Assembly: GCA_021827285.1 (NCBI GenBank)
Contig: JAKAWM010000001.1
Coordinates: 1-27,995, forward strand
DNA from: Actinomycetes bacterium
Lineage (GTDB): Bacteria; Actinomycetota; Acidimicrobiia; Acidimicrobiales; Palsa-688
DNA: 27,995 bases
Direction: 5' to 3'
The notes under the pieces were generated by a model. It did not search any database, was not told the DNA's origin, and saw nothing but the letters and a program-made list of their open reading frames with translations. Positions 3,826-4,960 of this stretch are shown one piece after another; the first letter of the stretch is position 1, and each line of letters begins with the position of its first letter. The translations under genes were made by a program, and so were the position numbers.

Positions 3826-4017
3826 TGTTCTCCGGGAGCATGTCAAACTTAGGGCCGTCGCCGTGCTGAAATGCTCCAGTTCGTGAACCCTTCTATTTTG
3901 GTAAAGCCTCTATTCCCGGGTACAGCCTGATTGAGGAGAGGTTTAGCCTACTTTTAGACGATCCGGTAAAACTACTGCTCGCTCCAGGGTATGCTGGTGG
4001 CCAGAAAGAAGGCTGCC

Positions 4018-4899
4018 ATGGCCAGATGGCATTGCCCCGTTTGTGGGCTAGATTTCGCTTTTCACTCCGAGCTCGACTGGCATATTCGTGAATCCCATGC
4101 TCTTAAGCGTACCGCCGGCCTGGCCGGGCAATTGGAGAGAAAGGCCGTGCTCAGCTGGGGCCTGCTAAAGCAATTGCACTCTGCTCAAGAGGGCCTCTCT
4201 GCGTCATTGTTCTTATGGACGACCCCAGCCCCGGTTATGACCCGTTCGGACGCCGCTAACCTTCGCCAACTGGCGGCGCGCGCCAGCGAACGGCTTTCCC
4301 GAGACCTCCGAGGAGAGGCGTTGGCGCGGATCGAGAGCCGGCTGGGCGAAGCGGTCAGGGCCGCTCAGAGCGGGCCCACCGACCATGGCCTCGCCCTGTT
4401 CGTGAGCCAGACGGGTGCCGCGGTGGTGCCCTTGCCCTTCGCGCCCCGGGAGAGGGTCGTGGTCAACCCGACCTTCGCGGTGCGCGAGTTGCTCGATGGC
4501 CTGGAGAGGTGCCCTATGTACCGGGCGCTGGTACTGCGCGGCCCCGGGTTCCGGTTGCTCGAAGGCCGCGGCGAACGCCTCAGCGAGATCCGCGACTGGC
4601 AGGTGCCGAACCCGTCGCTATGGCGTGCCGCTCGGGCCGAGGCCAACCAGCCCTGGGCCAGATGTTGGACGCCCCGGCAGCGGCGGCGGGCCGCTTTTGC
4701 AGGCCCGGGCCGGGACCGGGTTGCGGCACAGCTGGGACAACCCCCGGGCGTCGCCGGGCATATCGCCCTCGACGAACCTGGCCTAGCCCCAGTCCAAGCG
4801 TCGAACTGGCCACCAGCCTCGTGGTCCGGGAAAGCACAGCCCCGCCACGGCCGTAGAGCCCCACCGCCCGTCCCGGCACTAGCCCCGCCACGGCCGTAA
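4018..4899 (+). CDS. C2H2 zinc finger fused to a baeRF3-like (bacterial archaeo-eukaryotic release factor family 3) domain; C-terminus apparently truncated or scrambled
   Basis: N-terminus CPVCGLDFAFHSELDWHIRESH fits C-x2-C-x3-F-x5-L-x2-H-x4-H. It is followed by DHGLALFVS...VVPLPFAPRERVVVNPTFAVRELL...YRALVL...RLLEG...LSEI, which I recognise as baeRF3-like. Start is ATG 4018 (AGAAGG upstream) or ATG 3991. Confidence 0.72.
   Translation: MARWHCPVCGLDFAFHSELDWHIRESHALKRTAGLAGQLERKAVLSWGLLKQLHSAQEGLSASLFLWTTPAPVMTRSDAANLRQLAARASERLSRDLRGEALARIESRLGEAVRAAQSGPTDHGLALFVSQTGAAVVPLPFAPRERVVVNPTFAVRELLDGLERCPMYRALVLRGPGFRLLEGRGERLSEIRDWQVPNPSLWRAARAEANQPWARCWTPRQRRRAAFAGPGRDRVAAQLGQPPGVAGHIALDEPGLAPVQASNWPPASWSGKAQPRHGRRAPPPVPALAPPRP
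4740..4856 (+). pseudogene. Possible C-terminal remnant of a LacI-family regulator
   Basis: An alternative frame ends VELATSLVVRESTAPPRP*, a typical actinobacterial LacI C-terminus. No HTH or sugar-binding body is present upstream. Confidence 0.45.
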
Positions 4900-4905
4900 A
4901 GCCCC
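4838..4905. repeat. 25-bp imperfect direct repeat AGCCCCGCCACGGCCGTA(G/A)AGCCCC
   Basis: Copies at 4838-4862 and 4881-4905 differ by one base. Each copy contains a stop codon (TAG or TAA) that ends one of the two overlapping frames. Confidence 0.85.
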
Positions 4906-4911
4906 GGCGCC

Positions 4912-4960
4912 ATTCTGGTGGTCCTAAGTGCCCCCAGCACGCATTTCGGACCACCAGAAT
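4912..4960. terminator. Inverted repeat between convergent genes, probable terminator
   Basis: ATTCTGGTGGTCC (4912-4924) and GGACCACCAGAAT (4948-4960) form a perfect 13-bp stem between the baeRF3-like and fumC stops. No long U-tract, which is common in actinobacteria. Confidence 0.6.

What the first reader, a model, noticed from the sequence alone, without database searches (positions are those of the whole stretch)
4018..4700. Textbook C2H2 zinc finger fused to a bacterial eRF1-like (baeRF3) domain
CPVCGLDFAFHSELDWHIRESH (4033-4098) matches the classical C2H2 pattern including the Phe and Leu core, which is uncommon in bacteria. It is in one continuous frame with a baeRF3-like segment. baeRF proteins are proposed ribosome rescue or release factors and are largely uncharacterised; I do not know this fusion. 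Inference: a nucleic-acid-binding or Zn/redox-sensing module gating a ribosome-interacting factor. Similarity fades after about 4700, so it may be a short variant or a broken gene.
Basis: partly seen in the sequence, partly recalled or inferred. Interest (0 to 1): 0.75.

Follow-up and report, generated by a model that had tools for sequence, protein, structure and literature searches.

The report
Broken zinc-finger Balon hibernation-factor gene
The zinc finger and the eRF1-like segment are real and belong to one gene family, a previously undescribed zinc-finger version of the Balon ribosome hibernation factor found in uncultured Acidimicrobiaceae. The copy in this window has lost its middle and C-terminal domains through an in-frame deletion and is most likely a decaying remnant.

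Summary
Observation confirmed. Window 4018-4899 (+) is one open frame. It starts with C-x2-C-x12-H-x4-H (4033-4098) and continues into an eRF1-like N domain.

The fusion is not a chimera. More than 40 homologue clusters of about 425 aa, all from Acidimicrobiaceae/Acidimicrobiales MAGs, begin the same way. The four zinc ligands are invariant across 18 members at 39% mean identity.

Full-length members hit Pfam baeRF_family3 and align end to end with Balon. Balon is the ribosome hibernation factor characterised in 2024 (PDB 8RD8), so this family is no longer "largely uncharacterised". The finger and linker (aa 1-47) are an N-terminal add-on that Balon lacks. I found no paper describing this architecture.

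The window's copy is damaged. An in-frame deletion of 164 codons at 4701|4702 removes most of the middle domain and the whole EF-Tu-binding C domain. A second breakpoint at 4787|4788 replaces the native stop. An independent assembly of the source sample spans the deletion. Relatives carry independent wrecks of the same gene.

Verdict: a new variant of a known kind, seen here as a probable pseudogene. What the finger does is not shown; my guess is an extra ribosome anchor in a lineage that mostly lacks HPF. The scan has met Balon-type genes before on other DNA, but not this fusion.

The parts
4007..4012 (+). Shine-Dalgarno-like AGAAGG, 5 nt before the ATG at 4018
   Evidence: Read directly from the sequence. 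Homologues start at the equivalent Met.
4018..4899 (+). Open frame of 293 codons: remnant of a zinc-finger Balon-type (baeRF_family3) gene
   Evidence: It is 89-90% identical to P0003 over aa 1-228, then over aa 393-421.
4033..4098 (+). C2H2 zinc finger (Cys6, Cys9, His22, His27; Phe13 and Leu19 core)
4099..4155 (+). Linker, aa 28-46 (KRTAGLAGQLER...). Conserved within the close subclade, variable and acidic-helical in distant members, and predicted with low confidence.
4156..4515 (+). Balon/aeRF1-like N-terminal (decoding-centre) domain, aa 47-166, apparently complete
   Evidence: NF052287 profile positions 1-141 match aa 59-199. Family aa 48-390 align with Balon aa 3-363. Domain limits come from the model of P0003.
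4516..4701 (+). First about 62 residues of the middle (RNase H-like, PF18845) domain: three strands, the variable loop and 10 residues of the basic helix
   Evidence: PF18845 covers aa 168-331 of P0003.
4701..4702 (+). Junction of an in-frame deletion of 492 nt / 164 codons (aa 229-392 of P0003). It removes the rest of the middle domain and the whole C-terminal EF-Tu-binding domain.
   Evidence: A Logan contig of the source run spans 3918-4787 with no mismatch and no branch at the junction.
4702..4787 (+). Retained C-terminal tail, homologous to aa 393-421 of P0003 (includes the last strand, RIAAQLG-like)
4788..4899 (+). Non-homologous read-through of 37 codons to the TAA at 4897-4899. The second breakpoint lies at 4787|4788.
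   Evidence: Homology to P0003 ends at 4788. The assembly graph branches there, and the minor alternative path reads Trp-Ser-Ala-Ala-stop, the native end seen in P0003.
4912..4960 (.). Hairpin with 20-nt arms and a 9-nt loop between the convergent remnant and fumC. Possibly a bidirectional terminator.
   Evidence: I2. No T-run follows it, and the terminator scan did not call it.

Best explanation
The window holds a decaying copy of a lineage-specific gene for a Balon-type ribosome hibernation factor (Pfam baeRF_family3) that carries an N-terminal classical C2H2 zinc finger.

In intact relatives (about 410-450 aa), the finger (aa 1-27) and a flexible linker of about 20 residues precede a three-domain, GGQ-less and NIKS-less aeRF1-like core that aligns end to end with Balon. 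By homology, that core parks in the ribosomal A site of idle or stressed ribosomes. Its N domain sits on the decoding centre, its middle domain next to the peptidyl-transferase centre, and its C domain on EF-Tu, and translation is silenced.

The finger is an add-on, gained once within this clade. I infer that it is an extra anchor on rRNA or a ribosomal protein near the 30S A site or mRNA entry. It may make up for the HPF/RaiA partner that most genomes of this bacterial family lack.

In this genome a 492-nt in-frame deletion (4701|4702) removed most of the middle domain and the whole C domain. A second rearrangement at 4787|4788 replaced the native stop. What remains (finger, linker, N domain and a stub) is most likely non-functional as a hibernation factor.

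Shown: the architecture, its conservation, the homology to Balon, the two lesions, and the decay in relatives. Inferred: ribosome binding, the role of the finger, and loss of function.
For: Architecture and conservation:
- 47 homologue clusters, mostly 420-440 aa with PF18845, nearly all starting M-x-x-W-H-C-P-V-C.
- The zinc ligands are invariant in 18 diverse members.
- All 21 finger-bearing representatives fall in one clade of 26 tips out of 130 on a tree built without the finger.
- All named records are Acidimicrobiaceae or Acidimicrobiales MAGs.

Balon homology:
- NF052287 matches the homologues end to end at E 1e-42.
- The family profile hits 8RD8 chain B at E 4e-29, with family aa 48-390 aligned to Balon aa 3-363.
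- The AlphaFold2 model of P0003 (pLDDT 79.5, pTM 0.73) has Balon, Msmeg1130 and Rv2629 as its best Foldseek matches (E 2e-24 to 1e-13, TM 0.55-0.68), ahead of aRF1, eRF1 and Pelota.
- True NF052287 members are PF18845 members.
- There is no GGQ and no NIKS.
- Balon biology is taken from PMC10901736.

Lesions:
- The in-frame jump from aa 228 to aa 393.
- The junction lies inside an 870-nt mismatch-free Logan contig of the source run, with no branch at 4701.
- The alternative graph path at 4787 encodes the native WSAA-stop end.
- The deleted protein models poorly (pLDDT 44.5, pTM 0.31).

Decay elsewhere:
- A same-genus genome, G001, has a TAG, two deletions and a frameshift in its copy.
- L031 keeps only codons 1-34.
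- Shortened products sit on long contigs: P0038 at 248 aa and P0041 at 190 aa.

HPF context: PF02482 was found in 15 of 16 sister families of the order but in only 3 of 24 genomes of the window's own family, and in none that has the zinc-finger Balon.
Against: - The remnant is still an uninterrupted frame with a plausible ribosome-binding site.
- Its retained 228 codons show dN/dS 0.10 against L001, the same as the neighbouring Pyridox_ox_2 gene at 0.12. So either the deletion is very recent or the short protein is still under selection.
- The junction is spanned only in the sample the window probably came from. Other samples have no contig across 4584-4787.
- The poor model of the deleted protein used a shallower alignment (13 rows against 37), so the comparison is not clean.
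- The Balon 'HP' decoding-centre motif is not present at the aligned positions. This clade has T-x-P-A-x-x-M there, and the family scores far below the NF052287 equivalog cut-off (108-153 bits against 330). Identical ribosome contacts are therefore not assured.
- The HPF-absence pattern rests on related genomes. The lack of overlap (0 of 3) would arise by chance about 22% of the time, and 12 of the 24 genomes show neither factor.
- No RNA data were available.
Confidence: 0.72

Rival explanations
1. The deleted gene is a functional short variant. The finger, linker and N domain alone would plug or mark the decoding centre without touching the peptidyl-transferase centre or EF-Tu.
For: The frame is open, the deletion is in frame, and an SD-like site is retained. 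dN/dS is 0.10 over the retained part. The baeRF-1 clade includes natural families that have lost flanking domains (PMC6514570). The deleted form appears fixed in the source sample, with no branch at 4701.
Against: The breakpoints do not fall at domain boundaries. The deletion starts inside the long helix after the loop and leaves half an RNase H-like sheet. The product models poorly. No other database entry has this form; its 90% cluster has one member. The native stop is also lost. Relatives show unmistakable pseudogenes of the same gene. The low dN/dS is equally expected from a recent deletion.
Confidence: 0.22
2. The finger is a zinc or redox sensor rather than an anchor. Loss of zinc or oxidation of the cysteines would switch the hibernation factor on or off, tying hibernation to zinc supply.
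For: The four ligands are invariant while the surrounding surface varies. Zinc limitation is used to induce ribosome hibernation in mycobacteria (abstract of bioRxiv 10.1101/2024.11.25.625233, seen). The samples come from mine drainage, where metal stress is plausible.
Against: Invariant ligands are equally expected for a purely structural finger. Classical beta-beta-alpha fingers are typically nucleic-acid or protein binders. Nothing in the neighbourhoods points to zinc homeostasis.
Confidence: 0.2
3. The deletion, the fusion, or both are assembly artefacts of a metagenome bin.
For: The window is a whole 28-kb contig of a 60%-complete, 285-contig bin. The assembly graph branches nearby at 4787|4788.
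Against: The fusion is present in more than 40 independent homologue clusters and in 11 intact GTDB species representatives. The junction lies inside a mismatch-free Logan contig assembled independently from the run, and I found no repeat at the junction that could collapse. The window's path across 4788 also has its own bridging contig.
Confidence: 0.04
4. The family is a true peptide-release or ribosome-rescue factor, as originally proposed for baeRF proteins.
For: It has the aeRF1 fold, and Burroughs and Aravind proposed rescue roles for the clade (PMC6514570).
Against: There is no GGQ and no NIKS. The loop at the catalytic position varies from about 14 to 64 residues, the pattern those authors tie to inactivity. 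The nearest characterised relatives are hibernation factors that keep the peptidyl-transferase centre inert (PMC10901736).
Confidence: 0.03

Closest known systems
Balon of Psychrobacter urativorans (AOC03_06830; PDB 8RD8/8RDV/8RDW; NCBIfam NF052287; Pfam baeRF_family3)
   Same: It is in the same Pfam family. The alignment runs end to end (family aa 48-390 to Balon aa 3-363, E 4e-29). It is the best structural match (E 2e-24, TM 0.58/0.65). It has three aeRF1-like domains and no NIKS or GGQ.
   Different: Balon has no N-terminal extension, whereas this clade adds a C2H2 finger and linker (47 aa). Only 18-19% of residues are identical in the structural alignment. Scores are far below the equivalog cut-off (108-153 bits against 330). 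The Balon HP motif is replaced by T-x-P-A-x-x-M, and the middle-domain loop is shorter and variable. The window's own copy lacks the middle and C domains.
Mycobacterial Balon homologues Msmeg1130 and Rv2629 (PDB 8V9J/8V9L/8V9K; NF052288/NF052289)
   Same: They are from the same phylum and have the same fold (Foldseek E 5e-19 and 1e-13, TM 0.55-0.68). [quoted passage not shown]
   Different: Sequence relation is only marginal (profile E 0.002 to 8V9J; NF052288 E 0.004). They have no zinc finger.
Eukaryotic Vms1/ANKZF1 (VLRF-1 clade of the aeRF1 superfamily) with its N-terminal Rei1-like C2H2 finger
   Same: An aeRF1-superfamily ribosome factor that acquired an N-terminal C2H2 zinc finger (PMC6514570). 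This is a parallel in architecture.
   Different: It belongs to a different clade, is catalytically active, works on 60S-stalled complexes and has further domains. The resemblance is an independent acquisition, not homology of the fusion. I did not compare the finger sequences.
Anti-sigma-domain::Balon fusions noted earlier in this scan (e1-1117664)
   Same: Another case of an N-terminal module grafted onto a Balon-type factor.
   Different: The grafted module is different (anti-sigma rather than C2H2), as are the lineage (Chloroflexi-like) and the implied logic. I did not re-examine it here.

Membership tests
Pfam PF18845 baeRF_family3 | HMM score above the gathering threshold (31.5 bits) | tested here: not met
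   The window protein gets no baeRF hit at E<=10, because only about 60 of the 168 profile positions survive the deletion. Full-length homologues do pass: P0003 72.9 bits, P0006 65, P0036 37.2, P0045 38.8, P0051 55, P0061 45.6. The gene therefore descends from a member, but its product no longer meets the criterion.
Balon ribosome hibernation factors (NCBIfam NF052287 equivalog) | Whole-protein score of at least 330 bits | tested here: not met
   The window scores 63.7 bits and full-length homologues 108-153 bits. Fingerless relatives P0080, P0086, P0087 and P0105 pass at 334-360 bits.
Balon ribosome hibernation factors (NCBIfam NF052287 equivalog) | Three-domain aeRF1-like fold superposable on Balon | tested here: met
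   Met for the full-length homologue P0003 (model pLDDT 79.5; best PDB matches 8RDW_B, 8RD8_B, 8RDV_B). Not met for the window's deleted product, which retains only the N domain and a stub.
Balon ribosome hibernation factors (NCBIfam NF052287 equivalog) | Absence of the NIKS and GGQ motifs | tested here: met
   0 of 18 diverse members have GGQ or NIKS. 2 of 37 close members have an incidental GGQ string.
Balon ribosome hibernation factors (NCBIfam NF052287 equivalog) | HP motif in the N-domain loop that contacts A1492/A1913 | tested here: inconclusive
   At the aligned positions Balon has T-H-R-E-H-P, while this clade has T-x-P-A-x-x-M with T68, M74 and D78 invariant. The loop length is the same, but loop alignments at this identity are unsafe.
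Balon ribosome hibernation factors (NCBIfam NF052287 equivalog) | Binds the ribosomal A site together with EF-Tu and inhibits translation | not testable with these tools
   Needs biochemistry or cryo-EM. The window's copy lacks the C domain that contacts EF-Tu (PMC10901736).
Classical C2H2 zinc finger (Pfam PF00096) | C-x2-4-C-x12-H-x3-5-H spacing with a conserved Phe and Leu core | tested here: met
   The spacing is C-x2-C-x12-H-x4-H with F13 and L19. The ligands are invariant, and L11 and F13 are at least 90% conserved.
Classical C2H2 zinc finger (Pfam PF00096) | HMM score above the gathering threshold (25.2 bits) | tested here: not met
   Scores are 14.5-17.5 bits, E 0.005-0.05. The family profile hits the consensus-finger structure 1MEY at E 4e-4.
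Classical C2H2 zinc finger (Pfam PF00096) | Beta-beta-alpha fold that binds one zinc ion | tested here: inconclusive
   AlphaFold2 gives two short strands and a helix (aa 4-26) at pLDDT about 60-75. Zinc binding cannot be tested here.

The most novel reading that the evidence does not exclude
In a bacterial family that has largely lost the near-universal HPF/RaiA hibernation factor, Balon acquired a zinc finger and linker. This module would either take over HPF's job, occupying the 30S mRNA/decoding region while the core fills the A site, or make hibernation depend on zinc or redox state. Either way it would be a one-protein solution to ribosome storage and a bacterial parallel to the C2H2-bearing eukaryotic ribosome factors. 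The repeated wrecks of the gene, including this window's, would then record ongoing turnover of hibernation machinery.
Probability: 0.2. Interest if true: 0.7.

Novelty: new variant of a known kind. Interest (0 to 1): 0.45.

Why it matters
Balon was described only in 2024, and how its many divergent homologues differ is still open.

- A clade with a conserved, classical eukaryote-style C2H2 finger grafted onto the ribosome-binding N domain is a clean natural experiment on how hibernation factors gain extra ribosome contacts or regulatory inputs.
- It occurs in a lineage where the usual partner, HPF/RaiA, is mostly not detectable.
- The same gene is found repeatedly broken. This fits a recent proposal that hibernation factors are unusually prone to truncation, loss and reinvention (bioRxiv 10.1101/2025.11.04.686544).

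For this particular window the practical message is more modest. The gene should be annotated as a disrupted Balon-family (baeRF_family3) gene, not as a novel short release factor.

Tried and rejected
- Pfam on the other two frames after 4415 and 4509, to look for a frameshifted continuation: nothing found. The break is a deletion, not a frameshift.
- Second copy in the window's own genome: none found. HPF (PF02482) and the MSMEG_1130-type factor (NF052288) were also not found, but the bin is only 60% complete, so this says little.
- Conserved operon partners: none. Only the closest relative, L001, shares the radical SAM and Pyridox_ox_2 neighbours. Other relatives sit beside unrelated genes: a Hox-type NiFe hydrogenase, an ABC transporter with MarR, and a response regulator.
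A TTAGGGCAATTGGTCCCC box occurs upstream in two relatives (L004, L013) and a TTAGGGCC half-site in the window, but nothing is shared by all. Left as inconclusive.
- Microhomology or repeats at the deletion junction: none seen.
- The search for related loci with the diverse alignment A3 failed because it had no sufficiently conserved stretch. It was repeated with A2.
- RNA evidence: no RNA run holds the stretch.
- Independent samples across the junction: contigs from the other runs stop at 4583 and resume at 4788, so they give no independent confirmation.
- Literature search for 'C2H2 / zinc finger / ribosome hibernation / Balon': no relevant paper. The Balon paper and the baeRF paper mention no N-terminal finger on bacterial members.
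- HPF absence against zinc-finger Balon presence: suggestive, but not significant and not phylogenetically independent.
- Complex prediction was not used, because no specific protein-protein contact is claimed.
Full report
**What is in the sequence**

Window 3991..4899 (+) is a 302-codon open frame. Homologues start at the second Met, the ATG at 4018, which is preceded by AGAAGG at 4007-4012. From 4018 the product is 293 aa.

Pfam ranks zf-C2H2 first, but below its threshold (E 0.012, 16.4 bits against 25.2). It finds no baeRF domain in the window protein, nor in the two alternative frames downstream. NCBIfam gives one hit: NF052287, 'AOC03_06830 family ribosome hibernation factor', at E 2e-17. 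Residues 59-199 match profile positions 1-141 of 361.

**The fusion is real and conserved**

A search of 5.8 billion proteins returned 47 clusters. Most are 420-440 aa, carry PF18845 (baeRF_family3), and are named only 'hypothetical protein' from Acidimicrobiales or Actinomycetota MAGs. Nearly all begin M-x-x-W-H-C-P-V-C-G-L-D-F-A-F-H-S-E-L-D-W-H.

An exhaustive HMMER search of 1.84 billion representatives found 1120 relatives. Of the 150 best, 24 carry the N-terminal motif, and all 24 lie among the closest 35 or so (36-72% identity, 408-496 aa). The remaining proteins, of about 350-400 aa, align only from query residue 45-80 onward, so they have no finger.

In 18 diverse finger-bearing members at 39% mean identity, C6, C9, H22 and H27 are invariant, and L11 and F13 are at least 90% conserved. 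On a tree built without the finger residues, all 21 finger-bearing rows fall in one clade of 26 out of 130 tips. The five exceptions are N-terminally truncated or have a different N-terminus. That fits one gain followed by a few losses or mis-called starts.

Species representatives with the gene are all Acidimicrobiaceae or Acidimicrobiales MAGs. In a 300-genome sample of the phylum, only two weak, fingerless matches appeared.

**What the family is**

Full-length members pass PF18845 over aa 168-331, up to E 5e-20. They match NF052287 end to end at E 1e-31 to 1e-44, but at 108-153 bits they are far below the equivalog cut-off of 330.

A family profile hits PDB 8RD8 chain B at E 4e-29, with family aa 48-390 aligned to chain residues 3-363. 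The depositors' molecule name for that chain is 'Methyl-accepting chemotaxis protein', but the entry titles identify it as Balon of Psychrobacter urativorans.

An AlphaFold2 model of the 89%-identical homologue P0003 (pLDDT 79.5, pTM 0.73) shows three parts:
- a beta-beta-alpha unit at aa 1-27;
- a low-confidence linker at aa 28-46;
- a confident three-domain core.

Its best Foldseek matches are Balon (E 2e-24, TM 0.58/0.65), Msmeg1130 and Rv2629, ahead of aRF1, eRF1 and Pelota.

Fingerless relatives that pass the NF052287 cut-off are themselves PF18845 members. So baeRF_family3 is the family of the founding Balon protein. Balon binds the ribosomal A site with EF-Tu, keeps the peptidyl-transferase centre inert, aids recovery from long stationary phase, and its mycobacterial homologues inhibit translation in vitro (PMC10901736).

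The clade here has no GGQ and no NIKS. The loop at the former catalytic position varies from about 14 to 64 residues. Burroughs and Aravind link that pattern to catalytic inactivity (PMC6514570).

The Balon 'HP' loop is not conserved at the aligned positions, where this clade has T-x-P-A-x-x-M. I therefore file the family as a divergent baeRF_family3, Balon-type factor. It is not a member of the NF052287 equivalog.

**What is new**

The finger and linker (aa 1-47) are an add-on that Balon, Msmeg1130 and Rv2629 lack. Neither the Balon paper nor the baeRF paper mentions an N-terminal C2H2 on bacterial members. The only C2H2 in the latter is the Rei1-like finger of eukaryotic Vms1, an independent parallel. 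Full-text searches found nothing on this architecture. This scan has met Balon-type genes several times, including one anti-sigma::Balon fusion, but not this fusion.

**The window's copy is damaged, twice**

First lesion. tblastn of P0003 against the window matches aa 1-228 (window 4018-4701) and then, in the same frame, aa 393-421 (window 4702-4788). DNA comparison with the relative's locus L001 puts the junction at 4701|4702. It shows that 492 nt (164 codons) are missing, with no evident microhomology.

On the model, the deletion runs from inside the long basic helix of the middle domain to the penultimate strand. It removes about 100 of the 168 PF18845 positions and the whole C domain that contacts EF-Tu. 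This is why Pfam no longer sees the domain.

An 870-nt Logan contig of the probable source run (a mine-drainage metagenome) covers 3918-4787 without a mismatch and without a branch at 4701. So the deletion is in the reads and is not a product of the bin's assembler. Other samples have no contig across 4584-4787.

Second lesion. Homology ends at 4787|4788, and the assembly graph branches there. A minor path continues with codons for Trp-Ser-Ala-Ala-stop, the native C-terminus seen in P0003. The major path is the window's and has its own bridging contig. It joins unrelated DNA and lets the frame run 37 more codons, to 4899.

The deleted protein models poorly (pLDDT 44.5, pTM 0.31), though with a shallower alignment.

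**Is the remnant dead?**

dN/dS of the retained 228 codons against L001 is 0.10 (dS 0.54), the same as the neighbouring Pyridox_ox_2 gene at 0.12. That fits either a recent deletion or continued selection, and does not decide between them.

The wider picture favours decay:
- A species of the same genus (G001) has a copy with a TAG at codon 76, two deletions and a frameshift.
- Another Acidimicrobiaceae MAG (L031) keeps only codons 1-34.
- L029 has a frameshift, which may be a nanopore sequencing error.
- Shortened products sit on long contigs (P0038, P0041).
- The gene was found in only 12 of 41 related genomes.

This matches a recent preprint arguing that hibernation factors are unusually prone to truncation and loss (10.1101/2025.11.04.686544). 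I put the pseudogene reading at about 0.7 and the functional short variant at about 0.2.

**Context**

The gene is monocistronic. It lies between a divergent radical SAM / Pyridox_ox_2 pair upstream and a convergent fumC downstream, with enolase further upstream. Only the closest relative shares these neighbours, and there a Tn3-family transposase follows the gene. Other relatives have unrelated neighbours.

A 20-nt-arm hairpin at 4912-4960 separates the remnant from fumC.

**How the finger might work (inference)**

The Balon core begins with a helix at aa 47-55 that leads into the strand whose far end forms the decoding-centre loop. A linker of about 20 residues would let the finger reach nearby 30S elements.

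HPF/RaiA (PF02482), Balon's usual partner in the mRNA and P-site region, was found in 15 of 16 sister families of the order. It was found in only 3 of 24 genomes of the window's family, and in none that has the zinc-finger Balon. I therefore favour an extra ribosome anchor that may partly stand in for HPF.

This rests on related genomes. The non-overlap alone would occur by chance about 22% of the time, and half the family shows neither factor.

Zinc limitation is linked to hibernation in mycobacteria (abstract seen). Nothing here tests it.

**Verdict**

The architecture is a new variant of a known kind. This window holds a broken example of it.

Noticed in passing
Genomes G001-G040 (relatives of the window's genome): The near-universal hibernation factor HPF/RaiA (PF02482) was found in 15 of 16 sister families of the order but in only 3 of 24 genomes of the window's own family, many of them more than 90% complete. 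The three with HPF lack the zinc-finger Balon.
   Followed up: partly
window 4787-4788: The assembly graph branches here in the source run and in two other samples. A minor path restores the native Trp-Ser-Ala-Ala-stop end of the gene. On the fumC side, other samples join 4788 onward to a different upstream sequence. This indicates strain-level rearrangement at the point.
   Followed up: partly
window 4838-4911 and 4912-4960: A 31-nt direct repeat (4838-4868 and 4881-4911, 90% identical) lies in the non-homologous tail. It is followed by a hairpin with 20-nt arms and a 9-nt loop between the convergent genes.
   Followed up: no
L001:7376-9397: In the closest relative, a Tn3-family transposase (DUF4158 + DDE_Tnp_Tn3) lies directly downstream of the intact zinc-finger Balon gene, where the window has fumC. 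The 3' flank of this gene appears to be a rearrangement hot spot.
   Followed up: no
L004 about 194 nt and L013 about 237 nt upstream of the gene start; window 3849-3856: A near-palindromic box, TTAGGGCAATTGGTCCCC, lies upstream of the gene in two relatives, and the window has a TTAGGGCC half-site. It loosely resembles a DosR/DevR operator (13 of 20) but is not shared by all loci.
   Followed up: partly
L013:7391-12693: In one relative the gene sits beside a Hox-type NAD-linked NiFe hydrogenase cluster (HypA, HoxH, Oxidored_q6, Complex1_51K) and a ferredoxin gene. This would fit an energy-limitation or hypoxia setting.
   Followed up: no
PDB 8RD8/8RDV/8RDW chain B: The depositors' molecule name for the Balon chain is 'Methyl-accepting chemotaxis protein'. 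A sequence-only look-up would therefore mislabel Balon homologues.
   Followed up: yes
L010 (G001:C87:694-1382): A species of the same genus carries an independent wreck of the same gene: a TAG at codon 76, loss of aa 107-236 with a frame change, and a further gap of about 45 residues.
   Followed up: yes
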